NCBI GenBank assembly: GCA_045611665.1
Contig: JAZKXP010000004.1
Span: 1,446-65,445 of the forward strand
Length of the DNA: 64,000 bases
DNA from: Alphaproteobacteria bacterium
Lineage (GTDB): Bacteria > Pseudomonadota > Alphaproteobacteria > CAAHEQ01 > UBA3637
Reading direction: 5' to 3'
Both the position numbers and the translations under genes were made by a program. Positions 20,698 to 41,897 of the stretch are shown piece by piece (the stretch's first letter is position 1; every line of letters begins with the position of its first letter). Below the pieces are notes generated by a model. It was not told the DNA's origin, ran no database searches, and saw nothing but the letters and a program-made list of their open reading frames with translations.

Positions 20698-21932
20698 TGT
20701 ATCACCTTTCTTACCCTAGAATTCTTTTGTCCTTTTTGTCTGTCTGACGCATTCCATGCCGTTAAAATATTTTCTTGTCTTATCATGGCATATTTTACTA
20801 ATCCAATGCAAGTAGAAAATGTATAAGAATCAAACTGTGACGGCAATCCCTTTAAGACGGATGGCTTACCCAATCGAACGGCAGCACCCAACATATCGGC
20901 GGTTTTTTCTTTAATGCCTTGCAATCCGGCACCGCCTCCGGCTAAAATCAACCGTCTGGTTGCCGCCTGAAACATTGGATTTTCATCAATTCCGGCAGAT
21001 GTTTTTTCTAAAATATCTTCCAATCTCGGAATTAAAATAGAAATCAAATCAGACCGAGGAATTTGAATATTCGCCCCATCATCATCTGCCAAAATCGGAA
21101 CAATTAAGCGTTCTAAGTCATCTCGTGGAGACAAAAATGCCGACCCATTCAGTGTTTTTAACCGCTCAGCAACCGCCAATGAACAACCCAGCCCTTGTGC
21201 CACATCCCGTGTCATCGCATTTCCGCCGGCATGAACAAGCCCCAAATTAACCAAACACCCGCCTAAAAAAGTGGCATATCCGGTTATACCAGCCCCTAAG
21301 TCAATAACCGTTGCGCCAATATCTTTTTCTTCTTCCGAAATAATGGCAAGAGCGGAAGCATAAGGCGTTGCCACTTTCATATCTATTCCGACGTGACATC
21401 TATCCAAAACAGCCACCAAATTACGAGAACAACTTTCCGGCAAAAAGACAACATGCATATGTACACCCAAAGTCGGACCATACATTCCTCGAGGTTCTAC
21501 CCCCTGTTCCGCATTAACAACATAGCTTAATGGAAAAGAATGCAAAACTTCTTCTCCGGCCTCAATATGTTTTGCAACGGACCCGTCGACCAATCGTTTC
21601 ACATCTGATGCCGTAATTTGACGCCCATCAGCAATTTCCATTTCCTCATAATATTGAATAGACCGCATTTGATTAGATGAAATATTGACGATAACTTTAT
21701 CAATAGACCGTTCGCATTGATGTTCGGCTTGTTCTAAAACCGTTCGAATACAATCCGTCGCTTTATCCAAATCAACAATGACGCCATTTTTAATGCCTTT
21801 GGAAGGCGCATACCCCATTCCAATCACTTCCGGCTTTTGATCGGCATTCATTTTTAAGACCAAACAACACACTTTAGAGGTACCGATATCCAATACCGTC
21901 ATATAGGATTTTCTTTTACCGGTCCATTTCAT
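20676..21932 (-). CDS. ftsA: Cell division protein FtsA
   Basis: Actin-like ATPase; LDIGTSKV near the N-terminus (the probable true start is the internal MTVLDIG). Position ftsQ-ftsA-ftsZ. Confidence 0.9.
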
Positions 21933-22759
21933 TACTCTTTTTCCTCCGCTAAAGTTGCATCCGTTCGAACAATTAAGCGATCTTCAATTCTTAAGTCAAT
22001 CACAACAAAATCTTTATCCAATACCTGTTCCGTATCTTGCCATTGCATCAATCGTTCCAAGGCGGCCTCCACCTCGGTTTCCGGTAAATATACGGTGGTT
22101 CCGTCCGTTACATGGCGCAAAATTAAATTCCATCGTCTTCCCCCGACACGTACCGCAGAAACAACCATATCCCTGATAGCAGGATATTTATTAAGCGCTA
22201 TCATTAAATCAGAGGTATATTCAGGGGCATCCGGCCCAACAACCAAAATCAATCCGCTTAAAGTCGTTTCCTTATCATTAATCGGTTCACCCGTTTCATC
22301 TAACGGAAAGTAATTTTTATTATTTTGCCATACGGCAATCGGCGTTTTTTCAACAATACGAATATGCACAGTATCCGGTAAATGCCGTTCTACAGACACA
22401 CTATCAACCCATGGCAACTCAGCAATTTGACTTTGTACTTCGGATAAATCAACATCCAGTATCGGCATTCCTTGCTTTACATCCAATACCTGAACAATTT
22501 CTTCTTTTGTTGTACGATTATGCCCTTCAATATTCACCACCTGCAAAGATAAATGCGTTTTAGAAACGATTTGCTGATATAATTTAGCACTTTCCGCCAA
22601 CACTTTCTTACCGGATTGACCGGAAAAAAAAGCGGCCAACAAAAACACGATTAACACCAAAATCGCCGAGATTAATTTAACTTTTAACGGTATTAATTTT
22701 AACCGACTGTTTTTTTGTTTGTTCTTTATGCGTCGCATACGGCTCTCTCCACTAACCAC
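21932..22759 (-). CDS. ftsQ: Cell division protein FtsQ
   Basis: 275 aa with a basic N-terminus, a single TM, then POTRA-like domain; between ddl and ftsA. The start codon at 22759 is GTG on the sequence, so the ORF track evidently allows alternative starts. Confidence 0.75.
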   Translation of the reverse strand: MVSGESRMRRIKNKQKNSRLKLIPLKVKLISAILVLIVFLLAAFFSGQSGKKVLAESAKLYQQIVSKTHLSLQVVNIEGHNRTTKEEIVQVLDVKQGMPILDVDLSEVQSQIAELPWVDSVSVERHLPDTVHIRIVEKTPIAVWQNNKNYFPLDETGEPINDKETTLSGLILVVGPDAPEYTSDLMIALNKYPAIRDMVVSAVRVGGRRWNLILRHVTDGTTVYLPETEVEAALERLMQWQDTEQVLDKDFVVIDLRIEDRLIVRTDATLAEEKE

Positions 22760-23640
22760 ACAACCAACTCTTGATAGGACACACCTTGATAACGCGCCAA
22801 TTCCGGCACTAAAGATATCGGCGTCATACCGGGATTTGTATTAATTTCCAAAAACACCAAACCTTCTTCGGGGGAGGCATGATTATATCTGAAATCACTG
22901 CGAGACACCCCGCGACATCCCAACTCTTTATGTAACAAAAATGCTTGCTGCATCGCCAAATCATATATTTTTTGAGGCAACCGCGCCGGAATAATGTGTT
23001 CTGCTCCGCCTTGCGCATATTTATTGGTAAAGTCATAAAATCCGGACCGCGGAACAATTTCGACAACACCCAGCGCTCTTTCATCCGATACAGCCACCGA
23101 TATTTCAATGCCGTCAATATATTCTTCCATCATAACCGGTTTTTGAAATGGCCATGAAGACAACATCTTTTGTTCATCTTCCGAATTTTTGATAATAAAT
23201 ACACCCACAGATGACCCTTCATCATTTGGTTTTACAACATACGGCATAGGCAATGTCAAACCGTTTAAAACATCATTTTTTACCACCATCTTTTCGGCGG
23301 CAACCGTTAATCCGATATCGGCGGCAACCTTTTTTGCCAACCGTTTATTCATAGCCACAGCCGATGCTGCAACCCCCGAATGCGTATAAGGTATTTGCAA
23401 TAAATTCAAAATCCCCTGAACACATCCGTCTTCCCCAAATTTCCCATGCAGGGCATTAAAAACCACATCCGGCTTTTCACGGGTCAAAATACGGACAAAT
23501 TCGGCAACATCACGTGTTAAGTCAATCGGAAAAGGGCTGTATCCTGCCTCACTTAACGCCTGTAAAACACCTTGCCCGCTTTGTAATGAAATTTCTCTTT
23601 CCGATGAAATACCCCCCATTAAAACCGCGACCCGTTTCAT
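22726..23640 (-). CDS. ddl: D-alanine--D-alanine ligase
   Basis: 304 aa ATP-grasp enzyme (..LHGKFGEDG..; C-terminal ..FLEINTNPGMT..). Confidence 0.9.
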   Translation of the reverse strand: MKRVAVLMGGISSEREISLQSGQGVLQALSEAGYSPFPIDLTRDVAEFVRILTREKPDVVFNALHGKFGEDGCVQGILNLLQIPYTHSGVAASAVAMNKRLAKKVAADIGLTVAAEKMVVKNDVLNGLTLPMPYVVKPNDEGSSVGVFIIKNSEDEQKMLSSWPFQKPVMMEEYIDGIEISVAVSDERALGVVEIVPRSGFYDFTNKYAQGGAEHIIPARLPQKIYDLAMQQAFLLHKELGCRGVSRSDFRYNHASPEEGLVFLEINTNPGMTPISLVPELARYQGVSYQELVVWLVERAVCDA

Positions 23641-23644
23641 TTTT

Positions 23645-24580
23645 TTACTCCTTAGTTACACCTAATTTTTTAATTTCCCATTCCAACTCGACACCGGTAT
23701 CATTCCACACCTTTTCCCGAATTTCTTCACCCAAACTTTCAATATCTTTTGCCGTTGCATCTCCAAGATTAATTAAAAAATTGGTATGTTTTTCGGACAC
23801 CATGGCCCCCCCTCTACGATAGCCTCTAAAACCGGCTTTGTCAATTAAAGCCCAAGCCTGTAATCCGTGCGGATTTTTGAAAGTTGACCCCGCCGTCTTA
23901 ACCCCCGTTGGTTGATTATTTTCTCGTTTATGTTTATAATCGGCCATCGTTGCCAAAATATCTTCTGTTTTTCCTTTTTGTCCTTGAAAAACGGCACGCA
24001 CAAAAATCCAATCGTTCGGTAAATAACAGGTGCGATATCCGAAAACTTCCGTTTCTTTCGGATCAATTTCCCGAATATCACCTTCTCGCGTCACAATCGT
24101 TAAAGAGGTTAAAATATCCTCCAAACACTTTCCGTGAGCTCCTGCATTCATCCGGACAGCCCCCCCTACCGTTCCGGGAATACCGCTTAAAAATTCAAAG
24201 CCGGTCACACCGTTTTTAGCCGCTACGCGAGCCAGCTCTATTAACGAAACACCTCCGTCACACACAATTTTTGTATCTTCAACGGAAATTGTATGAAATT
24301 CTTTTCCCAAATGAATGGTAACACCGACAATGCCACCATCACGAATTAACACGTTGCTACCGCCTCCCAATAATGTCACCGGTACAGGCGGCATAAATTG
24401 TAACAACTTGGATAAATCCTCTATATCCGCGGGTTCTACATACACTTCAGCCGATCCGCCGACACCAAACCATGTTTTTTTATGTAGAGGATAATTAGTA
24501 AAAACACGCCCCCGAATCGGTGGTAAAGAATCAATTAAGGACACTTTTGTTTTAAAAATTTTTTTAAAAATGTTCCTCAT
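23645..24580 (-). CDS. murB: UDP-N-acetylenolpyruvoylglucosamine reductase
   Basis: 311 aa with FAD-binding PCMH domain motifs (GGGSN, AGSTFKNP). Confidence 0.9.
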   Translation of the reverse strand: MRNIFKKIFKTKVSLIDSLPPIRGRVFTNYPLHKKTWFGVGGSAEVYVEPADIEDLSKLLQFMPPVPVTLLGGGSNVLIRDGGIVGVTIHLGKEFHTISVEDTKIVCDGGVSLIELARVAAKNGVTGFEFLSGIPGTVGGAVRMNAGAHGKCLEDILTSLTIVTREGDIREIDPKETEVFGYRTCYLPNDWIFVRAVFQGQKGKTEDILATMADYKHKRENNQPTGVKTAGSTFKNPHGLQAWALIDKAGFRGYRRGGAMVSEKHTNFLINLGDATAKDIESLGEEIREKVWNDTGVELEWEIKKLGVTKE

Positions 24581-25971
24581 CTTTTTCCTTTCAATGCTTT
24601 AACCAATTTAATGGACTCTGCAGAAATACTGCCGGCCCCCAAACAAATAACCGTATCTCCGGCATTTGTTTCGGATTGTATTATATCGGCCAACTCTTCA
24701 AATCCGCTAAGAGATATAACATGTGGATGATATTGCGTTAAAGCATCGGCAAACGCCCGTTTATTTATTCCGTCGATTGGGACTTCGCCTGCCGGAAACA
24801 CATCACAAACTATAACGGTATCGGCATCCTTGAAACACGTTAAAAAATCTGTCCACAAATCACGTAACCGCGAATATCTATGCGGTTGAAAAACAGCAAC
24901 AACCTTCCCGGATGTACCGGAACGAACCGCTTGAACCGAGGCGGCAATTTCCACAGGATGATGACCATAATCATCATACAAAGCGACCTTATTAACTGTT
25001 CCGCGCAACGTTAACCGACGTTGGATGCCTTCAAATTTTTTAAGGGCTTTTTTTATTACGTCTTCTTTTATGCCTAAGCCAATACCCACGGCAACTGCCG
25101 CCAAGGCATTTTGCACGTTATGCAACCCAAACATATTCAGCATAACATCTTTTATTTTTACAAATTTAGCGCCCCGACGCACAAAAACATCAAACACCAA
25201 CCGGCCCTTTTTCAAACGAATATGGTCAGCATGTACATCCGCCGATTTATTTAATCCGTATGTAATGACTTTTCGGCTGTCTGTCTGTTCGGCTAACTCA
25301 CGCACAACCGGATGATCCGTGTTTAAAACACTAAATCCGTAAAAAGAGGTATTATCAACAAATAACCGATAGGCCGCTTTCATATTATCAAATTCTTTAT
25401 AATAATCCATGTGTTCGGAATCGATGTTTGTAATAACCGACACAGCATGCGGTAACCGCAAAAAAGACCCATCGGATTCATCGGCTTCCACAACCACATA
25501 TTTGCCCTTTCCAAGGCGCGCATTGGACGCTAAAGAATTTAAAATACCCCCAATCACAAAACTGGGTTTTAACCGAGCCTGCATCAAAATACTGGCGATT
25601 AAAGATGAGGTGGTTGTCTTGCCATGGGTACCGGAAATACAGATACTTTGTTTAAACCGTAATATTTCAGCCAACATCTCTGACCGATGCCCCACAGGAA
25701 TTCCCAATTGTTTTGCCGCAATTAACTCAGGGTTATCCGGTTGAATTGCCGTTGACACCACAACAGCATCCACCCCTTTTAAGTTATCAGCACTATGCCC
25801 GATAAAAACAGGAATCCCCTTATCTCGTACCCGCTTAGTATTTGCACTTTCCTTAGCATCCGATCCCTGTACACAAATACCCAAATCATCTAACATTTCG
25901 GCAATGGCACTCATTCCGATACCGCCAATACCAATAAAGTGAATCCGTTTTAAGGGGAGTGTTTTTTTCAT
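24577..25971 (-). CDS. murC: UDP-N-acetylmuramate--L-alanine ligase
   Basis: 464 aa Mur ligase (GIGGIGMS, GTHGKTTT). Confidence 0.9.
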   Translation of the reverse strand: MKKTLPLKRIHFIGIGGIGMSAIAEMLDDLGICVQGSDAKESANTKRVRDKGIPVFIGHSADNLKGVDAVVVSTAIQPDNPELIAAKQLGIPVGHRSEMLAEILRFKQSICISGTHGKTTTSSLIASILMQARLKPSFVIGGILNSLASNARLGKGKYVVVEADESDGSFLRLPHAVSVITNIDSEHMDYYKEFDNMKAAYRLFVDNTSFYGFSVLNTDHPVVRELAEQTDSRKVITYGLNKSADVHADHIRLKKGRLVFDVFVRRGAKFVKIKDVMLNMFGLHNVQNALAAVAVGIGLGIKEDVIKKALKKFEGIQRRLTLRGTVNKVALYDDYGHHPVEIAASVQAVRSGTSGKVVAVFQPHRYSRLRDLWTDFLTCFKDADTVIVCDVFPAGEVPIDGINKRAFADALTQYHPHVISLSGFEELADIIQSETNAGDTVICLGAGSISAESIKLVKALKGKR

Positions 25972-27095
25972 TTGACGTTTCCCTTTACAATATCATTCAC
26001 TAAATCCGCAATTTTATCAGACACATCCGGTTTGGCCAATTTATAAGACTGGGTTGCGGCCGTGTACAATAATTCCGGTTCATTAATCAGTTGCCCTAAG
26101 CGAACAGCAAATTTTTCGGCATCCCAATTATCTTCCGTCACCAACCAACCGGCCCCTGCATCCGAAAATTGACGTGCATTTTCCAATTGATGATTATCCG
26201 CCGAAGTCGGTAGCGGAATTAAAATAGCCGGACGACCGACAATTTGAGCCTCGGTAATTGTAGAGGCACCCGCCCGACCGATAATTAAATGAGCTTTTTC
26301 AATCAACTGGGGCATGTTATCAAAAAAGGATTTTAACTCAACATTTTTGAATCCTTTGTCTTTATATAAAATCTTGGCTTCATCCATATCTTCCGGACGC
26401 ACCTGAGCCGTTATAGACAATTTTGCCCGAACATCTTTTGGCAAAGCCAACAAAGCATGGGGTAATTTACGGGTCAAAAATTTCGCCCCCTGACTTCCTC
26501 CGAAAATCAGCAAATTAAACCCGTCATCCATTAACGGATAAGGGGCGTGTTGCTTAGCTAAAATCTGAGGTCTGACCGGTTGACCGACCCAAACGGCACG
26601 TACATTTTGAGGCAATCTCAACGTCGGATTAAAGGCCGTCAGAATCAACTTAGCACTTTTTGCCAATATTCGATTAGACCGCCCCAATACTGCATTTTGT
26701 TCGTGCAAAACAACAGGAATTCGCCACATGTGAGCAGCCATAACGGATGGAATAGATGCATATCCGCCAACGCCGATAACAACATTTGGATTTAACCGCT
26801 TTAACAACATCAAGGCCTGCACCATGCCACAGTATAATTTAAACGCACCCTTCATTTTACCCCAGAAAGATCGCCCCATTACATGCTCAGCCATCAGATG
26901 ATACGTTTTGACATCTAATCCACGAAACGCTCCCCCTCGTTTATCGGTTATAAATACAACCTCGTATCCTTTATGTATCAAAGCCTGCGAAATTGACTCA
27001 GCCGGAAAGACATGCCCTCCACTACCGCCGGTTGTTACAACGGCTAACGGTTTTTTAATTTGTTCTTGTTTCTTTTTCATCTTACCTTCTTTCAT
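25968..27095 (-). CDS. murG: Undecaprenyldiphospho-muramoylpentapeptide beta-N-acetylglucosaminyltransferase
   Basis: 375 aa GT28 enzyme with G-loop TGGSGGHVFPA. Confidence 0.9.
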   Translation of the reverse strand: MKEGKMKKKQEQIKKPLAVVTTGGSGGHVFPAESISQALIHKGYEVVFITDKRGGAFRGLDVKTYHLMAEHVMGRSFWGKMKGAFKLYCGMVQALMLLKRLNPNVVIGVGGYASIPSVMAAHMWRIPVVLHEQNAVLGRSNRILAKSAKLILTAFNPTLRLPQNVRAVWVGQPVRPQILAKQHAPYPLMDDGFNLLIFGGSQGAKFLTRKLPHALLALPKDVRAKLSITAQVRPEDMDEAKILYKDKGFKNVELKSFFDNMPQLIEKAHLIIGRAGASTITEAQIVGRPAILIPLPTSADNHQLENARQFSDAGAGWLVTEDNWDAEKFAVRLGQLINEPELLYTAATQSYKLAKPDVSDKIADLVNDIVKGNVK

Positions 27096-27098: not shown

Positions 27099-28223
27099 TC
27101 ATTCTAAACCACGACTGAGCGTATGTCTTTTTGTTAGAGCCAAAATCACACCAAATGCAAAACCTATGGATACCAAAGACGACCCACCGTAAGAGATAAA
27201 CGGTAAAGTCATTCCTTTGGTCGGCAACAAATTCAGTGTTGAGCCCATGTTTACAATAGCCTGAAACGCAATCTGTGTCAATAATCCACCTACGGCAATT
27301 TGACAAAAAAGGTTGTTTTCTCCCCTCATTAACCAAAAACCCCGCAAAATAATATAAGCAAAAACCATTACCAAGACGGATGTAATAATAAAACCGAATT
27401 CTTCTGCCGATACCGCCAAAATAAAATCGGTATGTGCATCCGGTAATTCGTATTTAACAATCCCTTCCCCGGGACCTTTTCCGAACCAGCCGGCATTTTT
27501 TAATGTTTCCATTGATTTTTCAACTTGATATGCCTCTCCTTTGGCCGGATTTAAAAACCGATCAATACGAGCGTGAACATGATCAAACACAAAATATGCC
27601 ACCACAACGCCGGAGGCTAAAATTCCACTTAAAAAAGTGACAAAAGCAATCGGAATTCCGGATAAAAATAATTGTACTCCAAAAATGGCAGATACCGTCA
27701 ATAACATACCGATATCGGGTTGTAAAAACAGTAAGGTTGCAATAATAAAAAATAATATAAACGAGGCAATATATCCCGGGAATTGACGAATTAAACGACC
27801 AGAAGCCAACAACCAAGCACACACAACGGCAAAAGCCGGTTTCATAAACTCAGAAGGTTGTAACCCAACACCCAACAAATTAATCCAACGGGTAGCCCCC
27901 TTTATTTCCACACCGAATAACAAAACGTACACCATACCACATAAAGCACCCACCAAAATTAAACCGGACAATCTGCGCACCGATTTAAACGATAAAAAGG
28001 CAACCCCCATCATTACCAGAACGGCCGGTCCGATAAAAACCAATTGACGTTTAATAAAATGATACGGATCGATATGATTGCGCTCCGCCACCCCGGGGCT
28101 GGCCGCAAACGTCAAAAACAATCCAAACAACAATAACACAAATGCGCCGGTTAATAATCCTTTATCCATACTACGATAATGATTGACGCAAAATGATTGG
28201 ATTTTTTGACACAGCAGACGCAT
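27099..28223 (-). CDS. ftsW: Peptidoglycan glycosyltransferase FtsW (SEDS family)
   Basis: 374 aa, about 10 TM, SEDS family, in the dcw position. It sits directly after mraY with no intervening murD. Confidence 0.85.
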   Translation of the reverse strand: MRLLCQKIQSFCVNHYRSMDKGLLTGAFVLLLFGLFLTFAASPGVAERNHIDPYHFIKRQLVFIGPAVLVMMGVAFLSFKSVRRLSGLILVGALCGMVYVLLFGVEIKGATRWINLLGVGLQPSEFMKPAFAVVCAWLLASGRLIRQFPGYIASFILFFIIATLLFLQPDIGMLLTVSAIFGVQLFLSGIPIAFVTFLSGILASGVVVAYFVFDHVHARIDRFLNPAKGEAYQVEKSMETLKNAGWFGKGPGEGIVKYELPDAHTDFILAVSAEEFGFIITSVLVMVFAYIILRGFWLMRGENNLFCQIAVGGLLTQIAFQAIVNMGSTLNLLPTKGMTLPFISYGGSSLVSIGFAFGVILALTKRHTLSRGLE

Positions 28224-28226
28224 TTT

Positions 28227-29309
28227 TTACCTCAATTTTAATGTAGATAACGCTAAAATAGCCAACAAAATAGAAACAATCCAAAACCGAATAACAACTT
28301 GTGTTTCTTCCCACCCTTTTTTTTCAAAATGATGATGAATGGGTGCCATCAAAAAGACCCGCTTTTTTCTGAGCTTATAAGAACCCACTTGAATAATATC
28401 CGAAACTGCCTCCATCACAAATACACCGCCGGCAATAGCCAAGACAATTTCATGTTTTGTTGCTACGGCTAAGGCACCTAAGATACCGCCCAATGCCAAA
28501 GATCCCGTATCACCCATAAAGACTTGCGCCGGATGAGCATTAAACCACAAAAATCCCAAAACCGCACCAATGACCGCTCCACAGAAAATGGCCATTTCTC
28601 CGGCACCGGAAACGTAATGCATTTGTAAATAGCTTGTATAATCCACACGACCGACTAAATAAGCAATCACCATAAAAACCAATGTGGACATAATGACCGG
28701 TATACTGACCAATCCATCTAAACCATCCGTTAAATTAACGGCATTAGAGGTCCCAACCATGACGATTAAAGCAAACGGAATATAAAACCATCCTAAATCA
28801 ATAAACAAATCTTTAAAGAACGGAATGGTTAAAGTCGTACTCATCGGTCCGTGTTCCAAAAACATAATCCAAGCACAAGCTGCGGCGCTGACAAAAAACT
28901 GCAAAGCCAGTTTCTTTTTGCCGGAAATACCGTCACTGCTGCGTTTTGTTAATTTTAAATAATCATCTAATAATCCGGCAAATCCGAATCCGGCCATCAC
29001 AAACATCAACATCCAAACGTAAGGATTAAATAAATTGGCCCACAACAGTGCCGACACTGCAATGGAAATCAAAATCATCAATCCGCCCATTGTCGGTGTT
29101 CCTTTTTTCTTCAAATGGGTTTGAGGGCCATCTGACCGTATCGGCTGTCCTTCACCTTGTTTGCTTTTTAACCAACCTATAAATTTGGGTCCAAACAACC
29201 AACACAAGAAAAAGGCGGTAAACAAAGCTCCTCCAGCCCGAAAAGTGATGTATCTGAACACATTTAAAACGGAAATATCATTTGAAAAAAAGGATAATAA
29301 GTACAACAT
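28227..29309 (-). CDS. mraY: Phospho-N-acetylmuramoyl-pentapeptide transferase
   Basis: 360 aa with [12 protein letters not shown] and HHHFE motifs. Confidence 0.9.
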
Positions 29310-29310
29310 C

Positions 29311-32133
29311 CTAAGCGTTTCCTTTCAACTTCATTACAATTGTTTTTAGTCCTGAACCATTTGAGGCCTTGACCAGTACAACAGCCCCTTCCGGCAATTC
29401 ATTCAATAAAATATTTGCCAATATTTCAGGAGAGTCGGCATAGGCTCCTTGTCTGTCCGGCGGCAAAGAATTATATAAATGACGACACAAAATACCGGTT
29501 GCATAAACTTTATCTATGCCCGCCTCCAACAAATCTTTAACCAACCCGACATGCAAGGAAATTTCGTGTTCCCCCAATTCCAACATATCACCCAATACAG
29601 CAACTTTCACAGTTCCTTGACGCAACCCCAAAGAACGAATAGAGGCCGCCATAGAAGACGGATTTGCATTGTAGGCATCATCAATTAAAATCACCGTATT
29701 CCCATTAGGTAATTTGACAGTTTCTGCCGCCCCTCGACCGGCTATTGCCGAAGCCGTTCCTAAGGCTGTGGCCGCTTGTTCAACACTGGCACCAACGGCA
29801 TCTACCGCCGCCAAAACAGCCAAAGAATTCATGGCAAAATGTTCCCCTAAAAAGCCGATATCATATTTTAACGGCGTTCCGTGCCAATCGGCTGCTATTT
29901 TCGTTTTTTCACCAATAGCCATAGTTTCTTTTAAAACAAAATCGGCCTCTTTTTCATGTCCAAAAGACACAATCCGTCGGACACCACAGGCATAAGCTTT
30001 TTCTCTTAAAAATCCAAAAAACTCTTTATTTTCCGTATTTAAAATGGCCACACCCCCATCATTCATGGCGGTAAAGATTTCGGCTTTAGCCTCGGCAATT
30101 TGGTGGGTGCCGGAAAAATGAGCCAAATGTGCCGTACCAATCATGGTAATAATGGCTACATCCGGACGCACCAATAAAGATAACTCCGTCAATTCGCCGA
30201 CATGATTCATGCCCGTTTCAATAATGGCATATTGTGTATCCAACGGCATTTGTGTCAATGTCAGCGGAACACCAATGTGGTTATTATAATTACCGGCAGT
30301 TGCATATGTTTTTCCTTGCTCACTTAAAGCCGTTTTTAACATTTCTTTTGTTGTTGTTTTGCCCGAACTGCCCGTTACGGCAATCACCTTAGCCTCCGAG
30401 CGATTACGGGCAAATAATGCCAACCTGTTAAACGCTTGCATCACATCCGCAACAACGATTTGCTTTGCCTCCGGAACACCGTCAATCAAATGGTCAACCA
30501 AACAAGCAGCTGCCCCTTTTTGAACGGCCGTTTTAACAAAGGCATGGCCATCCATATTGTCTCCACGAATGGCAATATATAAATCTCCGATTTGTAATGT
30601 TCTGGTATCCCGTGAAATACCGAAAGCATTTGTTCCCATCGGCACCTGAGGTGATAGGGCAGCCCTTAATTCATGAGATTGCCACAATGGCATTTGTTCC
30701 ACATTCATAACGGCCAATAAAGCTTCAATTTTATCATCAAAAACATAAGAAACGCCGTTAATGATTTGGCCTGTTTCATGGCCTTTACCGGCAATAATCA
30801 ACACATCTTCAGCCGTCAAAGAATGAACCGCCGTTAAAATGGCCATACGTCGATCACCGATTTCAATTCCTTTCGGGCAAGCCGATACAATCTGCGTACG
30901 AATGTCGGCCGGATTTTCAAAACGCGGATTATCGTCCGTAATATAAACACTATCCGCTAAGCGGTTGGCAATTTCCCCCATCAAAGGTCTTTTAGCCACA
31001 TCCCGATTGCCACCACATCCGAAAACACAGACTAATCGCCCTTTTGTATGTGCACGCATGGTTGTCAAAACCCGTTCCAAAGCATCCGGCGTATGGGCAT
31101 AATCAATGTAAATTGATGCACCGTTTTTCAAAGTAGCAACACGTTCCAATCGCCCGGCCGGCGCCGAGACACAAGGAATAACCTGCATAATTTCTTCCGC
31201 ATTCATCCCCAATCCGACACACAGCCCTATGGCACATAAGATGTTCATAGCCTGAAAATCACCAACAACAGGCAAATCTATCTCATATGTTTTGCCGAAA
31301 GCGTATAGCGATACACGTTGCCCTTGTGGCAATGGTTTTTGTTCCAAAATTTTAAGTTCATCACCGTTTTTACCATAGGAAATAACGGATAATCCTTTTG
31401 ATATGACAACCTCCCGCAACCGGTTAAATTCCGGAATATCGGCATTCAAAACAACGGAACCTCCCATCTTAACCAAATCCATTAATTTGATTTTTGCCTC
31501 AAAATAAGCGGCCATTGTTTTATGGTAATCCAAATGATCTTGGGTGACATTTGTGAATGCGGCCGCCTCCAACTCAACCCCATTTAAACGCTGTTGGTCC
31601 AATCCATGGCTGGAAGCTTCCATCGCAACCGCTTGGACTCCGGTACGTTGTAACAGATTTAAATTTTGGTGCAATGTACACACATCGGGTGTTGTCATAG
31701 AACCGGATTGTTTAAACACGGGAGAATCAATTCCAATTGTTCCCATACTGGCCGTTGTCACACCTAATGCATTCATAATTTGTGCGACATAGTAAACCGT
31801 AGATGTTTTTCCGTTTGTGCCGGTAACGGCTACCTTTTTCACCCCTTGAGACGCATATAAAATTTGAGCCATACACGCCATTATTTCTCGGACATTCGGC
31901 ACAACAAAAACAGGAACGGAGGCAGAGACACTTTGTTCCGATACAACCGCAACACACCCATTTTGAATGGCCTGCGGAATAAAATTTGTCCCATCTTGCG
32001 CTTGACCTTTCACGGCACAAAATATGTTACCGGCTTTAATCGTTGCCGAATTACAGGATATACCCGTAATTTCCATATCCTCTCCGTGATAATCCAGCCC
32101 CGTCCGTTTTGTTAATTCGCTTAACATCATCAT
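29311..32133 (-). CDS. murE-murF: Fused MurE-MurF: UDP-MurNAc-tripeptide synthetase (meso-DAP adding) fused to UDP-MurNAc-pentapeptide synthetase
   Basis: A single 940-aa ORF. The N-terminal half has MurE P-loop GTNGKTST and the DAP-recognition DNPR motif ([11 protein letters not shown]). The C-terminal half has MurF P-loop [11 protein letters not shown] and [11 protein letters not shown]. No stop or frameshift lies between the halves. Confidence 0.85.
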
Positions 32134-33872
32134 CTTTTTTTCTTTTTCGCCTCTGTTGAAATATCTATTGATTTTTGTACATACGCCGGTAATTTATATT
32201 CCGTCACGGGCTGAACCCCTAAATGCGGAGCAATTCCCGCAATAATGTCCAACGCCACCGGTTTGGCATTCCATCCGGCCGTATTAAAATTCCACGTTTC
32301 TTTTATTCGTTTGGGATCTTCCAACACCACCAACACAGCGTATTTAGGCGCCGTCATCGGAAAAACACCCACAAAAGTTGTTCTGGATTTACCCTCAACA
32401 TACTTGCCGTTTTCAATCAAATTAGCCGTTCCCGTCTTACCGCCGACGGCATATTTTGTTACCGGATGATTTTTTTTCAAATCCCAATTCACCACAGCCC
32501 ACATCATCGGCCGCATTTGTTCACTTGTTTTTTGGGAAATCACCTGAATTTCCGTTTTGCCTTTATTGCCGTCTTTTAAAAAAGTCGGCACACGATAATA
32601 TCCTCCGTTTACCAAAGCAGAAACACCGGCAATTAAGTGCAACGGGGAAACAGATAATCCATAGCCAAATGCCACATTAGCAGAGGTAATATCCGCCCAT
32701 TTTTTATCTTTCGGGGGCATTAAAACACCGGCTCGTTCCGGCAGAGCAATGGGTAACGCCTTATAAAAACCGAAACGAGATAAAAATTCTTGTTGTTTTT
32801 TGTATCCGGACTTTTGAGCAATTTGCACCGTACCGATATTGGAAGAATGCATCAACACCTCCGGTACCATCAAAGGACGTTCTTGTCCACGATAATCGGT
32901 AATGCGTTTGCGGCCGATTTTTATCGGTTCCGATGTATCAAACGTATCCCACGGCGTAATATCTTTGTATTCTAAAGCCATTGCCGTATTAAATAATTTA
33001 AAAACAGACCCAAATTCATAAACCCCCAACGAGGCTTTATTAAATTGTTGTTGAGGGGTAAGCTTTAACGACAAATTCGGTGTATAGTCCGGCAAAGAGA
33101 CCATTGCCAAAACTTCCGCCGTATTAACATCCATAACGATGGCAGCGCCACCGACTGCTTTAAATTTTTCTATTCCCTTTTCGAGAGCCGTCCGAGCCGT
33201 TTCTTGCACCGACATATCAACGGACAAAATAATATCTTGTTCTTTTAATGCTGTATTATACGCTTTTTCCAATCCGGCAACACCATTACCGTCAATATCT
33301 ACGGAACCGACCAAATGAGAAAACAAATTACGTTGTGGATAAACCCGTTTTTCCCCGGGTGTTTCGGATAAAAAATAATACCCGAGCCAATTAACGGCAT
33401 TACGTTCTGCCGGTGTTAAATTCCGCTTAATATACCGAAAGGTTCCGCCACTGTTCAATTTATGCAATACCTCTTCATAAGACAAATCGGGTAATGCCTT
33501 TACAATATTGGCCGCAATTTCTTTTTTATCTCCTTTAACCATAGCCGGATTAACAGATAAATCAACGGTTGGAACGCTGGTTGCCAAAAGAGTGCCATGA
33601 CGACCCATGATATTTTTGCGTTCTAATTCAAAATCCGCTTTTAACACGCTGGGTATAAATTGACGCGGTTCATAATTCATAACCGTCAGATAGAACAAAC
33701 GCGCAACGATGACAGAAAAACAAACAGACATTACCCCTAAAATAAAACAGATACGACCGCGCGCTTTTTTGAGAGCCACCATTGTCGCCCCGTCTAAACA
33801 ACGATACTTATCCAATGCCGTTTGTTCAATTTCCTGACCGGGATAATAAAATGTTTCTTTTCGTTTAAACAT
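32130..33872 (-). CDS. ftsI: Peptidoglycan D,D-transpeptidase FtsI (PBP3)
   Basis: 580 aa with an N-terminal TM and transpeptidase motifs SVFK, SSN and KTGT. Confidence 0.85.
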   Translation of the reverse strand: MFKRKETFYYPGQEIEQTALDKYRCLDGATMVALKKARGRICFILGVMSVCFSVIVARLFYLTVMNYEPRQFIPSVLKADFELERKNIMGRHGTLLATSVPTVDLSVNPAMVKGDKKEIAANIVKALPDLSYEEVLHKLNSGGTFRYIKRNLTPAERNAVNWLGYYFLSETPGEKRVYPQRNLFSHLVGSVDIDGNGVAGLEKAYNTALKEQDIILSVDMSVQETARTALEKGIEKFKAVGGAAIVMDVNTAEVLAMVSLPDYTPNLSLKLTPQQQFNKASLGVYEFGSVFKLFNTAMALEYKDITPWDTFDTSEPIKIGRKRITDYRGQERPLMVPEVLMHSSNIGTVQIAQKSGYKKQQEFLSRFGFYKALPIALPERAGVLMPPKDKKWADITSANVAFGYGLSVSPLHLIAGVSALVNGGYYRVPTFLKDGNKGKTEIQVISQKTSEQMRPMMWAVVNWDLKKNHPVTKYAVGGKTGTANLIENGKYVEGKSRTTFVGVFPMTAPKYAVLVVLEDPKRIKETWNFNTAGWNAKPVALDIIAGIAPHLGVQPVTEYKLPAYVQKSIDISTEAKKKKR

Positions 33873-34189
33873 TACCGGTGCTCCTGTTGATGCGCCGTAT
33901 CGGATGTATTTTTTAACAGCGGAACTTGGTCGGCTTCAATAATCTGAGCCGCCTCAATTCGTTTATAATTTGTTTGTTCCGCAACCAGCGCCCTTAATCG
34001 TTCCGGATCATTTAAAGAGGCCCAATCCCCTTTCAACATGTGAATTTCACGTTTATCAAAAGCTATTTGACGGTGTAGCCGATAGAGTTGTTCTTCTTTT
34101 TCAATAACTTGATATTTCAACATAAACATTCCGACACCGGATGCTATAGCAATCACAAAACACAATAAGTTAAACCCCCACCGTTTCAT
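33872..34189 (-). CDS. ftsL: Cell division protein FtsL
   Basis: 105 aa bitopic protein with a single TM and a coiled coil; located between rsmH and ftsI. Confidence 0.6.
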   Translation of the reverse strand: MKRWGFNLLCFVIAIASGVGMFMLKYQVIEKEEQLYRLHRQIAFDKREIHMLKGDWASLNDPERLRALVAEQTNYKRIEAAQIIEADQVPLLKNTSDTAHQQEHR

Positions 34190-35112
34190 CCACCCTCCTT
34201 CGTTCTGAGAGCTGCCCGCAATTTAGCCGAATGAGCGCGCGGATTTAGAGCCAATTCCGCTTCATCTGCAACAATCGGCTTTTTTGTAATTATTTGAAAC
34301 AGTATCGGTTGACTTATCTTTTGAGGGGCATGCCGATTTTCATTCGGCCCCCGTCCGGAATGATACATCATAAAATTTTTAACTATTCTGTCTTCTAACG
34401 AATGAAAAGACACAACAACCAAACGTCCGTTCGGTTTCAATAACTTTAAAGACGCCGTCAATGCCCGTTCCAACTCGCCCAATTCATCATTAACAAAAAT
34501 CCGAAGCGCCTGAAACGTTCGCATGGCTGAATCCGATCCGTCTTTCGGACGGGGCATAACTTGATGGACAATATTGGCCAGTTGACCGGTTGTGGCAATT
34601 TCCTCTTGAGACCGCGCCCGCACAATAGCCGCCGCAATTCGGCGAGAAGCACGCTCTTCCCCATACCGAAACAAAATATCTGCCAGCTCTTTTTCCTTAA
34701 ATGTATTAACAACATCTTTAGCAGACAAGCCGGATTGAGCCATACGCATATCCAACGGTCCGTCAAACCGGAACGAAAACCCCCGTTGAGGTTCATCTAT
34801 TTGCATGGAGGATACGCCAATATCCAAGACAATCCCATCCACCGGCTCCGTGATATGATTAGCCATATTTCCAAAACAATCTTGAATAAAACGAAATCGC
34901 CCATTAAAATCTTGTTCGGTTTTTTGAGCCGTACTAACTGCACTCGGATCTCGGTCAAATCCGATAACCTCGTTTTCTTCAGAAGCATTTAAAATCGCCC
35001 GTGTATAGCCGCCGGCCCCAAATGTACCGTCAATATAAACGCCGTTTTTTCCTTGCAATAAGGTATTCAAAACAGGTTGCAATAAAACCGGAATATGCGG
35101 ACAAGTTTCCAT
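34186..35112 (-). CDS. rsmH: 16S rRNA (cytosine1402-N4)-methyltransferase RsmH (MraW)
   Basis: Motifs HIPVLL.., YIDGTFGAGGY and DLGVSS. The ORF is open to 35175, but the METCPHIPVLL start at 35112 matches RsmH N-termini. Confidence 0.85.
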   Translation of the reverse strand: METCPHIPVLLQPVLNTLLQGKNGVYIDGTFGAGGYTRAILNASEENEVIGFDRDPSAVSTAQKTEQDFNGRFRFIQDCFGNMANHITEPVDGIVLDIGVSSMQIDEPQRGFSFRFDGPLDMRMAQSGLSAKDVVNTFKEKELADILFRYGEERASRRIAAAIVRARSQEEIATTGQLANIVHQVMPRPKDGSDSAMRTFQALRIFVNDELGELERALTASLKLLKPNGRLVVVSFHSLEDRIVKNFMMYHSGRGPNENRHAPQKISQPILFQIITKKPIVADEAELALNPRAHSAKLRAALRTKEGG

Positions 35113-35242
35113 AAGACGCACCTTCTGCTGAAACAGGCATAAAACCTTAAAAAAACATATAAAAAAATATATCAAAATAAAGTTAATAAATTATTAACAA
35201 TCATTTGTTCCAAGTCGGAAAAAAAACAAAGAAACAGCCAAG

Positions 35243-36589
35243 CTATTCCACGACTTTGTATGTTTTTGTTTTGGGCGAATACTTAAATGTTTCAGTCCCA
35301 TAAATATCCCACTTAACCGTTATCATATCATCGCTCTGATTAAGCACCGTGGCACAATTTCTGCCGGAAATACGGCACAGTCTGTGTTCAGACACTTTAA
35401 CGATACCAGACCAATGGGGATGTTCAAAATGGAATACTTTTTCCGTCGGGTTAATGAATTCATAAAGACCTTTTTCCCCTAAAATAAATCTTTCCGTCCC
35501 ATACCTATCCCATTTAATCGTTAATATGTCATCAACAATTTTATATGTTCCAAAATCTTTACTTTGGTGTCGTTTTAACCGATTACCCTCTTTTAGCTCT
35601 AAAAAATCGGACCATGCGGAATGATTGGCAAAAATTTTATTCGGAATATCCGGCAAACACTTTTGATTGTAATACTTGTCAATAACCCGCATATCAATTT
35701 TTTCAGGCGTTTTTGGTTCTTGTAAGATATTTTTCAAGATATGACATTGTTCCAAAATTGTTTCGGACCACTGAGGGCGAATTCCTTTCAGTGTTTCAAA
35801 ACGGTCAAAAACACGCCGTTTAACTTCCAGTGTATTTTCCAGATATTTGACTGAAGATGTTGCCGATCCCGGCGTTTTGCGAACTTTTATCATATATTCA
35901 TCCGTTTTTATAAGTTGTCCGCCGGCAAAAATAATTTGCAACCAATAATCGTAATCTTCCCCCACCATCAAAGATGGGTCATACCATATATTATTATCAA
36001 CAACAAAAGAGCGCCGAACCATTGCGCCGGAATTACCAAATAAATTACCAAAAAACAAAATGACCGGAAATTTTTCCAAAGAAGTTAAAGAATACTCTTT
36101 AGCATTCTCCTTAACAGGGAGGTCAGCAAAAATCGGGGCTTGTTTTCCATTTACCGCCGTAACAGACGGATAATCAGTCATTATTTGAACTTGCGTTTCT
36201 AATTTTGTCGGGACGGCAACATCATCCGAATCCATAATAGACAAGTACTTACCTCTTGCCGCCCTCTGTGCTGTATTTCTGGCGCAACCGACACCACAAT
36301 TTTGTTCGTGTACGATTATCTTGATACGATTGTCTTTTTCGGCATACTGTCTAACAACCTCTAAAGTATTATCCGTAGAGCCATCATCAACGATAATAAA
36401 TTCAAAATCCTTAAATGATTGATTTAAAATGGACTCAATCGCTTCTCCTACCAATTTTTCACGATTGTAAACCGGCATCACAACCGATACCGTTGGCGGA
36501 AAAAGAAAATACCCTCCATACCCTATCAGAAAGCTCATCAAAAAGATACTGATTTTTAAAAAGAGTTTTGTATACTTCCTGTTAGTCAT
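35243..36589 (-). CDS. Family 2 glycosyltransferase with a duplicated C-terminal extension domain
   Basis: 448 aa with an N-terminal TM and a GT-A core (VVMPVYN, DDGSTD, DSDD). The C-terminal roughly 150 aa holds two copies of a D[DI]ILT[IV]KWD[RI]YGTE[RT]F-containing module. Confidence 0.7.
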   Translation of the reverse strand: MTNRKYTKLFLKISIFLMSFLIGYGGYFLFPPTVSVVMPVYNREKLVGEAIESILNQSFKDFEFIIVDDGSTDNTLEVVRQYAEKDNRIKIIVHEQNCGVGCARNTAQRAARGKYLSIMDSDDVAVPTKLETQVQIMTDYPSVTAVNGKQAPIFADLPVKENAKEYSLTSLEKFPVILFFGNLFGNSGAMVRRSFVVDNNIWYDPSLMVGEDYDYWLQIIFAGGQLIKTDEYMIKVRKTPGSATSSVKYLENTLEVKRRVFDRFETLKGIRPQWSETILEQCHILKNILQEPKTPEKIDMRVIDKYYNQKCLPDIPNKIFANHSAWSDFLELKEGNRLKRHQSKDFGTYKIVDDILTIKWDRYGTERFILGEKGLYEFINPTEKVFHFEHPHWSGIVKVSEHRLCRISGRNCATVLNQSDDMITVKWDIYGTETFKYSPKTKTYKVVE

Positions 36590-36618
36590 GCTGGAGGATA
36601 TTTTCCGTTGTTATTAAT

Positions 36619-37041
36619 TTATCCGACGATTTCGTTACCGCTAAACCATTGAGCAATTTCGATTTTAGCCGTTTCTTCAGCGTCAGAACCATGTACGGAA
36701 TTTTCACCGATACTTAAGGCGAATTCCTTACGAATTGTACCTTCCGCAGCATTAGCCAGATTAGTAGCCCCCATCACTTCACGATATTTAGTGATGGCGT
36801 TCTCTCCCTCCAATACTTGAACCACCACCGGAGCGGAAGTCATAAAGGAAACTAACTCATCAAAAAAAGGCTTTCCGGCATGAACACTATAAAATGTTTC
36901 GGCTTGTTTTTTGGTCATATGAACCCGTTTTTGAGCCACGATACGCAATCCGGCAGCTTCAATTTTTGCATTAATTGCCCCCGTTAAATTACGATTTGTG
37001 GCATCTGGTTTAATAATTGAAAAAGTTCTTTGAATTGACAT
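36619..37041 (-). CDS. ndk: Nucleoside diphosphate kinase
   Basis: Start [13 protein letters not shown] at 37041 is preferred over the track start at 37053, because a GGAG RBS lies inside the upstream MEKT codons. NDK motifs are complete, including catalytic His in NSVHGSD. Confidence 0.9.
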
Positions 37042-37184
37042 TGTTTTCTCCATATTTTAAAAGTTAAACATAGTGCTATCCTATCTTTTTCAAGCCGTCT
37101 TGTCAAGACCAATCCCCTCTTTATCAATACAAAACAGCCAAATCCTCACAGATTCGGCTGATAACAGATAAAATTAAAAAAAAA

Positions 37185-40460: not shown

Positions 40461-40472
40461 TTTAAATCCTCA

Positions 40473-40760
40473 TCATGGAGCTAACTTATTTCCGCGTGAA
40501 TAATATATATTTTTACTGGGCGTCATCATCGGCCCAGAGGCTTTCATCATATTAGATAAGTGCGGTTCTTTTACCCCGTAAATAATAATCACTAAGTGAG
40601 CCAAACCTATCGTAGCAATAAAAAAAATCGGGTTATGATGTGTGGCAATCCACATACACAAGAAAACGGATTGAACGGTAATATTTGCAATGGACGGCAC
40701 CATAGGCGCCCAAAAAACTTTCGGCGGCATTGCAACGGCTTTTAAAATTGGTTCATGCAT
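40473..40760 (-). CDS. virB3: Type IV secretion system protein VirB3/TrbD-like
   Basis: 95 aa two-TM protein of VirB3 size and topology, 12 nt upstream of virB4. Confidence 0.6.
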   Translation of the reverse strand: MHEPILKAVAMPPKVFWAPMVPSIANITVQSVFLCMWIATHHNPIFFIATIGLAHLVIIIYGVKEPHLSNMMKASGPMMTPSKNIYYSRGNKLAP

Positions 40761-40899
40761 CCCATTCTCCCGCTAAACGGTTATTATTCGGATTTATTAT
40801 ACGCATATATCGGTTAACAATAACTTAACACAAAAAAACTTTTAAAACAAGCTCTTTTTCAAAAATTTCTTATTGCTTTTCGGCAATAATATCCGTCCC

Positions 40900-41406: not shown

Positions 41407-41576
41407 ATTGATTTTTTTGATAAACGTAAAAAACGCCTAAAGATCAAACCTCGTTATTGGTTAATAAGTATGGCAATTATACTTTTTTTAAAATATCACG
41501 TCAAGTCTTTTTGATATATCCCGAATATCCCCGTAAAAATAACCTCTTGAGCACCGAGATGATATGTTTCATGATA

Positions 41577-41897
41577 TCAATGATAGTACGATAAACACTT
41601 ATAGGCAACGGCTTCAATTTTTGCATCATTATCATCGTTTGTTTCGACTTGCGTCACCTTCAAATAATCCGCCCCGATTTTGGCCGCTTGTTTTCTGGCT
41701 TTTTTCAACGCAACATTGGAATTCCAGCTGTATGGCGTATTAATCAAAGCAATTTCTTCATAATCACAGTCAGGTTCTTCTTTAAAAACGACTTTAACCT
41801 CCTCAGGGGTAATCGGCGCGTATGACTTAGCCACCATAATATGAGTTGAGGCACATCCGCCCATTAGAAATAAACACATAAACAAAAGACGCTTCAT
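41577..41897 (-). CDS. Lipoprotein, hypothetical
   Basis: Start refined to MKRLLFMCLFLMGGCAS (lipobox LMGGC) at 41897, with a perfect AAGGAG RBS; mature protein about 90 aa. Confidence 0.5.
   Translation of the reverse strand: MKRLLFMCLFLMGGCASTHIMVAKSYAPITPEEVKVVFKEEPDCDYEEIALINTPYSWNSNVALKKARKQAAKIGADYLKVTQVETNDDNDAKIEAVAYKCLSYYH

What the first reader, a model, noticed from the sequence alone, without database searches (positions are those of the whole stretch)
27099..32133. Single-ORF MurE-MurF fusion and absence of murD from an otherwise complete dcw cluster
A 940-aa ORF carries a complete MurE ([12 protein letters not shown]) followed without interruption by a complete MurF ([22 protein letters not shown]). 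In the canonical cluster these are separate adjacent genes. In addition, mraY is followed directly by ftsW with only a 3-nt gap, so the murD that normally lies between them is missing from the cluster. All other dcw genes are present in standard order. The result is either an unusual enzyme architecture (bifunctional sequential ligase) plus a relocated murD, or an assembly artefact that removed a stop codon.
Basis: seen in the sequence. Interest (0 to 1): 0.55.

Follow-up and report, generated by a model that had tools for sequence, protein, structure and literature searches.

The report
Fused MurE-MurF ligase, murD outside cluster
Two consecutive cell-wall enzymes (MurE and MurF) are made here as one 940-residue protein, and the murD gene is not in its usual place; the fusion is real and conserved, but it is a known and common enzyme architecture, so the finding is ordinary.

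Summary
On the minus strand, 29311-32133 is one uninterrupted 940-aa ORF holding a complete MurE followed by a complete MurF. mraY (28227-29309) is followed after 3 nt by ftsW (27099-28223). No murD-like sequence occurs anywhere in the 64 kb. The fusion is not an assembly artefact. More than 120 independent protein clusters (100 to 48% identity; NCBI, ENA, Logan and JGI assemblies) are full-length fusions with a gap-free junction. All six related loci examined have the same fused gene and the same mraY-ftsW adjacency.

The architecture is known. MurE-MurF is the most prevalent Mur chimera (PMC10214165), the best PDB match is the Bordetella pertussis chimera 8F5D, and NCBIfam has a model for it. 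This protein is a separate, linker-less variant that keeps the MurF N-terminal "cap" which the Bordetella type lacks.

A murD-less mraY-ftsW junction also occurs in about 10 unrelated loci that I sampled. I could not locate murD in this lineage with the tools available, so "relocated elsewhere in the genome" is an inference from the otherwise intact pathway. Interest is low.

The parts
29311..32133 (-). murE-murF fusion gene: 940-aa bifunctional UDP-MurNAc-tripeptide synthetase (meso-DAP-adding, DNPR motif) and D-Ala-D-Ala-adding enzyme. The MurE module is about residues 1-479 and the MurF module about 480-940, with no linker.
30685..30705 (-). Fusion junction (codons about 477-483, ...[12 protein letters not shown]...). 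It is in frame, has no stop and has no gap in the alignment of 23 homologues. Met481 is not conserved, so there is no conserved internal start.
28227..29309 (-). mraY (360 aa, TIGR00445 at 431 bits)
28224..28226 (-). 3-nt spacer between the mraY stop and the ftsW start. This is the position where murD normally lies; no remnant is present.
27099..28223 (-). ftsW (374 aa; the best NCBIfam match is TIGR02614 ftsW at 318 bits, just under its 337.5-bit cut-off)
19183..27095 (-). Rest of the cluster downstream: murG 25968-27095, murC 24577-25971, murB 23645-24580, ddl 22726-23640, ftsQ 21932-22759, ftsA 20676-21932, ftsZ 19183-20697. The genes are tightly packed or overlapping.
32130..35175 (-). Upstream part of the cluster: rsmH 34186-35175, ftsL candidate 33872-34189, ftsI 32130-33872. 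The ftsI stop overlaps the start of the fusion gene by 4 nt.
35243..37053 (-). ndk (36619-37053) and a GT2 glycosyltransferase (35243-36589), occupying the place where mraZ would be.

Best explanation
The 940-aa ORF is a genuine, vertically inherited gene fusion. It encodes a bifunctional Mur ligase. The N-terminal MurE module adds meso-diaminopimelate to UDP-MurNAc-L-Ala-D-Glu. The C-terminal MurF module then adds D-Ala-D-Ala, giving the UDP-MurNAc-pentapeptide that the next gene product, MraY, uses. The fusion joins the last residues of MurE directly to the first residues of MurF with no linker. The simplest origin is loss of the murE stop at the usual overlapping stop/start junction; this origin is inferred.

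It belongs to the known class of natural MurE-MurF chimeras. It is probably an independent fusion event from the beta-proteobacterial (Bordetella) type, because it keeps the MurF N-terminal cap segment that the Bordetella type has lost.

murD was cleanly excised from between mraY and ftsW in an ancestor of this uncultured, low-GC alphaproteobacterial lineage (labelled 'Alphaproteobacteria bacterium' MAGs in NCBI). It is most likely encoded elsewhere on the chromosome. That last step is inferred from the intact rest of the pathway, not shown.
For: Shown:
- The ORF has two complete Mur-ligase domain sets with intact P-loops and specificity motifs.
- The NCBIfam bifunctional MurE/MurF model NF008896 aligns end to end (22-939 against 29-959 of 965).
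- More than 120 clusters of full-length homologues (927-954 aa, 100 to 48% identity) come from independent assemblies.
- The 23-sequence alignment has no gap or stop at the junction.
- Separate MurE proteins of outgroups align up to residue 467-478, and separate MurF proteins from residue 475-483. The estimated linker is 0 residues, against -23 in a Burkholderiaceae fusion.
- 8F5D lacks query residues about 479-495 and 498-503.
- The AF2 model has pLDDT 90.8. Its halves superpose on MurE (4C13, TM 0.90) and MurF (4QF5, TM 0.87).
- Six related loci with 75-48% identity in the fusion all show the fused gene and mraY directly followed by ftsW (L001, L002, L084, L085, L086, L092).

Support for murD lying elsewhere:
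- murC, murB, ddl, alr, mraY, murG, ftsW and ftsI are all intact and conserved.
- murD-less mraY-ftsW junctions recur in unrelated lineages: 4 of 54 GTDB loci and 6 of 45 metagenome loci.
Against: No murD of this lineage was found, so relocation is not demonstrated. None of the loci examined (window 64 kb; six related loci with up to 10 kb on each side) contains it. The protein scores 854 bits against NF008896, below that model's 1023-bit cut-off. The whole-chain superposition of the AF2 model on 8F5D is poor (TM 0.40-0.47, rmsd 15.7 A), so the Bordetella inter-module geometry is not confirmed for this variant. No expression or activity data exist. Internal initiation or proteolytic separation of the two halves cannot be excluded.
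Confidence: 0.87

Rival explanations
1. Assembly or sequencing artefact: murE and murF are really separate genes, and an indel or base error removed the stop codon in this contig.
For: In most alphaproteobacterial outgroups murE and murF are separate, adjacent and overlapping genes. A single-base error could therefore join them in principle.
Against: The same uninterrupted fusion is present in more than 120 independently assembled clusters down to 48% identity. It is also in six related loci from different samples and assemblers. The junction is gap-free and partly conserved, with W484 invariant.
Confidence: 0.01
2. murD is truly absent from this lineage. Either D-glutamate addition is done by a non-orthologous or very divergent enzyme (or by one of the remaining Mur ligases), or the stem peptide is unusual.
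For: No MurD was found in any of the roughly 150 kb of sequence from this lineage that was examined. A MurD-seeded search and a profile search of 1.84 billion representatives produced no candidate attributable to the lineage. The cluster proteins of the lineage are long-branch: MurC is only 47-49% identical to Rhodospirillales MurC.
Against: The searches could not have reached it. Calibration shows that outgroups with about 60% MurC identity already score 410-490 bits, below the 494-bit cut of the top-150 list. MurD of this lineage is expected to score lower still. Only a small fraction of any genome was visible. The MurE module carries the standard MurE signature and scores above the MurE cut-off, which implies the normal UDP-MurNAc-L-Ala-D-Glu substrate. 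The in-cluster MurC is a clear MurC (TIGR01082 at 515 bits) and scores only 114 bits against the murD model, below its 212-bit cut-off. From general knowledge, dcw genes often lie outside the cluster.
Confidence: 0.04
3. The fused ORF is transcribed as one gene but yields two separate enzymes, through internal translation initiation near Met481 or through proteolysis, so there is no bifunctional polypeptide in the cell.
For: A Met codon (M481) sits exactly at the inferred MurF start.
Against: M481 is not conserved; it is Q, K, T and other residues in homologues. The B. pertussis chimera is purified and crystallised as one polypeptide (PMC10214165). The junction folds as a continuous helix-loop-helix with pLDDT of about 90 or more in the AF2 model, averaged over 10-residue blocks.
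Confidence: 0.05

Closest known systems
Bordetella pertussis MurE-MurF chimera (PDB 8F5D; Shirakawa et al. 2023, PMC10214165; NCBIfam NF008896/PRK11929)
   Same: It is a single polypeptide with MurE followed by MurF and six Mur-ligase domains. It sits at the same position in the dcw cluster, between ftsI and mraY, and has no long linker. It is the best sequence and fold match.
   Different: Sequence identity is only about 32%. The score against NF008896 is below the cut-off. The window protein keeps about 23 residues at the junction (the MurF N-terminal cap region) that the Bordetella and Burkholderiaceae chimeras lack. In Bordetella, murD is present between mraY and ftsW (L024). The predicted inter-module orientation does not superpose.
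Separate MurE and MurF of Alphaproteobacteria (for example Skermanella, Phaeospirillum, Kordiimonas loci L013, L016, L027)
   Same: Each half is most similar to these proteins: 45-48% identity for MurE and 38-44% for MurF. Both halves have the same motifs and the same meso-DAP specificity motif DNPR.
   Different: In those taxa there are two genes with a stop between them. mraZ and murD are present in the cluster.
Linker-less MurE-MurF fusions in other lineages (SAR11/Pelagibacteraceae L007 and L079, Micropepsaceae L004, Desulfotignum L009, Myxococcota L012 and L030)
   Same: They are single ORFs with direct or near-direct junctions, with estimated linkers of 0-9 residues.
   Different: Identity is low (33-44%), and the fusions are probably independent. 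Most of these loci keep murD between mraY and ftsW. L030, L089 and L090 combine the fusion with loss of murD from the cluster, as the window does.

Membership tests
Natural MurE-MurF chimera (PMC10214165) | One polypeptide with a complete MurE (N, central and C domains) followed by a complete MurF (N, central and C domains) | tested here: met
   Pfam finds PF01225, PF08245 and PF02875, each twice. NCBIfam matches MurE NF001124 at 664 bits (cut-off 476) and MurF TIGR01143 at 501 bits (cut-off 288.6).
Natural MurE-MurF chimera (PMC10214165) | ATP-binding P-loops and substrate motifs of both modules intact | tested here: met
   [22 protein letters not shown] and DDAYNANP are present and invariant in 23 homologues.
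Natural MurE-MurF chimera (PMC10214165) | The fusion is conserved in relatives, so it is not a one-off error | tested here: met
   More than 120 full-length clusters and six related loci.
Natural MurE-MurF chimera (PMC10214165) | Both activities are carried by the single polypeptide | not testable with these tools
   This needs enzyme assays on the purified protein. It has been shown only for B. pertussis, as cited in PMC10214165.
Beta-proteobacterial bifunctional MurE/MurF equivalog (NCBIfam NF008896) | Score at or above the curated cut-off of 1023 bits | tested here: not met
   The score is 854.3 bits, although the alignment is end to end.
B. pertussis subtype of the linker-less chimera | The MurF N-terminal cap is missing and the hydrophobic patch is covered by the MurE C-terminus | tested here: not met
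   The alignment to 8F5D shows that the window protein has about 23 extra residues at the junction (479-495 and 498-503). The estimated linker is 0 residues, against -23 in a Burkholderiaceae fusion.
B. pertussis subtype of the linker-less chimera | Rigid, elongated head-to-tail arrangement as in 8F5D | tested here: inconclusive
   The AF2 model is confident (pLDDT 90.8, pTM 0.81). Its whole-chain TM to 8F5D is 0.40-0.47 with rmsd 15.7 A, while the halves fit MurE and MurF at TM 0.87-0.90. The predicted inter-module geometry is not reliable evidence either way.
Canonical proteobacterial dcw cluster (mraZ-rsmH-ftsL-ftsI-murE-murF-mraY-murD-ftsW-murG-murC-murB-ddl-ftsQAZ) | murD between mraY and ftsW | tested here: not met
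   The gap is 3 nt and there is no MurD in the 64 kb. For comparison, murD is present in 50 of 54 outgroup loci.
Canonical proteobacterial dcw cluster (mraZ-rsmH-ftsL-ftsI-murE-murF-mraY-murD-ftsW-murG-murC-murB-ddl-ftsQAZ) | mraZ at the head of the cluster | tested here: not met
   Neither E. coli MraZ nor the MraZ of related locus L085 finds a match in the window. ndk and a GT2 gene occupy that position.
Canonical proteobacterial dcw cluster (mraZ-rsmH-ftsL-ftsI-murE-murF-mraY-murD-ftsW-murG-murC-murB-ddl-ftsQAZ) | The remaining genes are present in standard order and on one strand | tested here: met

The most novel reading that the evidence does not exclude
This whole deep-branching, low-GC alphaproteobacterial lineage lacks an orthologous MurD. 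D-glutamate is then added to UDP-MurNAc-L-Ala by something else: a xenologous or highly divergent ligase encoded elsewhere, or a second activity of one of the remaining Mur ligases. On this reading, the tight MurE-MurF fusion and the loss of murD would be linked parts of a rewired cytoplasmic peptidoglycan pathway.
Probability: 0.04. Interest if true: 0.75.

Novelty: new member of a known kind. Interest (0 to 1): 0.14.

Why it matters
It matters little for new biology. The finding adds an uncultured alphaproteobacterial lineage to the list of taxa that carry the well-known MurE-MurF chimera. It also shows a plain end-to-start, cap-retaining junction that differs from the crystallised Bordetella type.

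It has some practical value for annotation. The NCBI records call these proteins only 'MurE', so the MurF function could be scored as missing in pathway reconstructions of these MAGs. A cluster-based search would likewise score murD as missing.

The recurrence of murD-less dcw clusters in several unrelated lineages is a small data point for studies of how the dcw cluster erodes.

Tried and rejected
1. **Search for murD in the window and related loci.** I used phmmer --max and tblastn with E. coli MurD and six alphaproteobacterial MurDs. Only paralogue-level hits to MurC and the fusion came back.

2. **Genome-contig scan with the fusion alignment**. These were useful as a control set, but the scan did not name the lineage or give its genomes.

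3. **Metagenome-contig scan with the fusion**. Most hits were SAR11-like fusions, and only one short locus of this lineage was returned (L092).

4. **Ddl search**. I hoped that the L002 lineage, which lacks ddl in the cluster, keeps ddl next to murD elsewhere. Only in-cluster ddl genes were returned.

5. **MurD of the nearest outgroup (L019) as seed**. All 120 top hits were Rhodospirillales at 56% identity or more. None matched the contig lengths of this lineage.

6. **MurD profile against 1.84 billion representatives**.
   - I screened the 150 hits by amino-acid composition and nearest neighbours.
   - I looked up 10 of them and one genomic context (an ordinary dcw cluster with murD). None is attributable to the lineage.
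   - Calibration shows that MurD of this lineage would score well below the 494-bit list cut, so this route could not succeed.

7. **Exact look-up of the window's own fusion protein.** It is not on record.

8. **Supplement of PMC10214165.** It is not held as text.

9. **A mechanistic link between the fusion and loss of murD from the cluster.** I considered and rejected this. Fused genes with murD present (L004, L007, L009, L024, L079) and unfused genes without murD (L028, L032, L033) both exist.
Full report
**Observation**

The region lies in a compact division and cell-wall (dcw) cluster on the minus strand. The gene order is:

| Gene | Coordinates |
|---|---|
| ndk | 36619-37053 |
| GT2 glycosyltransferase | 35243-36589 |
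| rsmH | 34186-35175 |
| ftsL candidate | 33872-34189 |
| ftsI | 32130-33872 |
| 940-aa ORF | 29311-32133 |
| mraY | 28227-29309 |
| ftsW | 27099-28223 |
| murG | 25968-27095 |
| murC | 24577-25971 |
| murB | 23645-24580 |
| ddl | 22726-23640 |
| ftsQ | 21932-22759 |
| ftsA | 20676-21932 |
| ftsZ | 19183-20697 |

Intergenic distances within the cluster proper (rsmH to ftsZ) run from -34 to +4 nt. Upstream, ndk and the GT2 gene are 29 nt apart, and the GT2 gene and rsmH 67 nt.

The 940-aa ORF carries two full sets of the three Mur-ligase Pfam domains. It scores above the curated cut-offs of both MurE (NF001124, 664 bits against 476, residues 14-478) and MurF (TIGR01143, 501 bits against 288.6, residues 509-935).

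mraY ends in TAA. Three bases later ftsW starts.

E. coli MurD and six alphaproteobacterial MurDs find nothing in the 64 kb except weak paralogous matches to MurC and to the fusion. The core observation is therefore confirmed.

One side statement is wrong. mraZ is also missing from the cluster and from the window.

**The fusion is not an artefact**

A search of 5.8 billion protein clusters returned at least 120 full-length homologues of 927-954 aa. They run from 100% down to 48% identity and come from NCBI, ENA, Logan and JGI assemblies. All carry the doubled domain set.

In an alignment of 23 of them the junction region (...[24 protein letters not shown]...) has no gap and no stop. W484 is invariant. 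Met481, which sits where MurF would start, is not conserved, so there is no conserved internal start codon.

Related loci from independent assemblies were examined: L001 (75% identity), L086 (58%), L002 (50%), L085 (49%), L084 (48-49%) and the short L092 (50%). They all show the same picture. The first five carry the complete single-ORF fusion, and in all six mraY is directly followed by ftsW. L092 is a 3.9-kb contig that starts inside the gene, so it holds only the downstream part of the ORF.

These loci differ widely in their flanks, in GC content (35-46%) and in protein identity. MurC falls to about 52% identity. The arrangement is therefore old and inherited, not a local error.

**What it is**

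The best match among solved structures is 8F5D, the Bordetella pertussis MurE-MurF chimera. The E-value is 8e-127 and the match spans residues 26-800 across both modules. NCBIfam holds a dedicated model for the bifunctional enzyme (NF008896). It aligns end to end, but at 854 bits it is below the 1023-bit cut-off.

Shirakawa et al. 2023 (PMC10214165) report the following:
- MurE-MurF is the most prevalent natural Mur chimera, making up 64% of all chimeras.
- 96% of these chimeras are in Proteobacteria, including alpha-proteobacteria.
- They exist in linker-containing and linker-less forms.
- Both modules are active in the Bordetella protein.

The architecture is therefore known.

In my own control sets, single-ORF fusions appeared in about 10 of 80 GTDB loci. 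These included Micropepsaceae, Pelagibacteraceae, Desulfotignum, Myxococcota and Burkholderiaceae. They also appeared in 67 of 80 metagenome loci, which were mostly low-GC, SAR11-like sequences.

**Which variant it is**

Separate MurE proteins of alphaproteobacterial outgroups align to the fusion up to residue 467-478. Separate MurF proteins align from residue 475-483. Extrapolating from the ends of E. coli MurE and MurF gives a linker of 0 residues for the window and for L001 and L002. The same estimate gives 0-9 for other fusions and -23 for a Burkholderiaceae fusion.

In agreement with this, the alignment to 8F5D shows that the Bordetella protein lacks window residues about 479-495 and 498-503. 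This is the MurF N-terminal 'cap' region, which the paper says is missing in the crystallised chimera. The window protein is therefore a plain end-to-start fusion that keeps the cap.

Three points suggest an independent fusion event. This is an inference; no phylogeny was made.
- Each half is more similar to separate alphaproteobacterial MurE and MurF (45-48% and 38-44%) than to the Bordetella chimera (32%).
- The NF008896 score is below its cut-off.
- The junction differs from the Bordetella type.

An AlphaFold2 model built on the 23-sequence alignment is confident, with pLDDT 90.8 and pTM 0.81. Its halves superpose on MurE (4C13, TM 0.90) and MurF (4QF5, TM 0.87). The whole chain superposes poorly on 8F5D (TM 0.40-0.47, rmsd 15.7 A). 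I treat the inter-module geometry as undetermined.

**Mechanism**

The mechanism follows from established knowledge of Mur ligases. The MurE module has the DNPR motif, so it is the meso-DAP type. It converts UDP-MurNAc-L-Ala-D-Glu to the tripeptide. The MurF module adds D-Ala-D-Ala, which Ddl and Alr supply; both are encoded in the window. The next gene product, MraY, makes lipid I. The suggested benefits of fusion are fixed 1:1 stoichiometry and proximity of two consecutive active sites (PMC10214165). Neither was tested here.

**murD**

Among the outgroup loci that hold both mraY and ftsW, 50 of 54 have murD between them, so its absence is a derived state. It is not unique to this lineage, however. 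The same murD-less junction occurs in the following loci:
- L028 (Geminicoccaceae).
- L030 (Myxococcales, which also has a fused murE-murF).
- L032 and L033 (other alphaproteobacterial MAGs).
- L089 and L090 (fused murE-murF, GC 53-57%, more similar to Rhodospirillales than to the window lineage).
- L161, L164 and L166 (GC 35-37%, distant).

Fusion and loss of murD from the cluster also occur separately, so they are independent traits.

I could not find murD of this lineage:
- A Ddl search returned only in-cluster genes.
- A search seeded with the nearest outgroup MurD returned only Rhodospirillales.
- A MurD profile search of 1.84 billion representatives listed 150 hits at 494 bits or more. 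None could be tied to the lineage.
- A calibration explains the failure. Outgroup orders whose MurC is about 60% identical to Rhodospirillales already score 410-490 bits with that MurD profile. MurC of the window lineage is only 47-49% identical.

The statement that murD lies elsewhere in the genome therefore rests on inference. Every other enzyme of the pathway is intact and conserved. The MurE module is a standard MurE, which needs the MurD product as its substrate. MurC is a clear MurC (TIGR01082 at 515 bits; murD model at 114 bits, below its 212-bit cut-off). I put about 0.04 on true absence of an orthologous MurD.

**Verdict**

- The feature is real, and the artefact reading is rejected.
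- The fusion is a new member, with a cap-retaining linker-less junction, of a known and common chimera class.
- The missing murD is a lineage-wide rearrangement of a kind that recurs elsewhere.
- Interest is low.
- The decisive check is a murD HMM search of the complete MAGs, which these tools could not do.

Noticed in passing
window 35243-37053 (-): mraZ is missing from the head of the dcw cluster. ndk sits there instead, as it does in L001, L002, L084 and L086; L085 keeps mraZ. In the window a 448-aa family-2 glycosyltransferase is inserted between ndk and rsmH. L086 has a shorter GT2 gene at the same place.
   Followed up: partly
window 38019-42942 (-): A lone VirB4/TrbE-like ATPase (813 aa, TIGR00929 E = 1e-103, below the cut-off) lies beside the dcw cluster. 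It is followed by four ORFs (95, 168, 125 and 328 aa) with no Pfam or NCBIfam match. The VirB4 gene and small neighbouring ORFs are also present in L001. No other type IV secretion components were recognised.
   Followed up: no
window 16093-17160 (-): Alanine racemase (alr) lies about 2 kb beyond ftsZ, close to the dcw cluster. D-Ala supply, Ddl and the MurF module are therefore encoded within 16 kb of each other.
   Followed up: no
L002 17468-19330: In this related lineage (50% identity) ddl is also absent from the cluster: murB is followed by ftsQ. The Ddl search did not recover its ddl. This is a second case of cluster erosion in the same group.
   Followed up: partly
L089, L090 (metagenome contigs); L030 (Myxococcales MAG): Other lineages combine a single-ORF murE-murF with a murD-less mraY-ftsW junction. 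L089 and L090 (GC 53-57%) are closer to Rhodospirillales than to the window lineage in all cluster proteins. The combination may therefore have arisen more than once.
   Followed up: partly
L161, L164, L166: These are low-GC (35-37%) metagenome loci with separate murE and murF, and mraY directly followed by ftsW without murD. Their MraY is only about 36% identical to alphaproteobacterial MraY (L085, L089, L090). Their taxon is unknown.
   Followed up: no
window 24577-25971 (-) and related loci: MurC of this lineage is a long branch. It is 47-49% identical to Rhodospirillales MurC, whereas other alphaproteobacterial orders are 58-73% identical. MraY and FtsW are much less divergent relative to the same outgroups.
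   Followed up: partly
window 29311-32133, AF2 model ma197a6258fce: The confident model (pLDDT 90.8) places the MurE and MurF modules in a relative orientation that does not superpose on the 8F5D crystal structure (TM 0.40-0.47). Each module fits known structures well. This could reflect the retained MurF cap, or simply AF2's uncertainty about inter-domain geometry.
   Followed up: no
L086 15063-15359: A 98-aa ORF without a Pfam hit is inserted between ftsW and murG in this related locus. It is absent from the window and from the other related loci.
   Followed up: no
window 1-64000: GC skew is negative on the plus strand across almost the whole window, so the cumulative skew falls almost steadily with only brief local upturns. 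Most genes are on the minus strand. There is no sign of a replication origin or terminus in the window.
   Followed up: no
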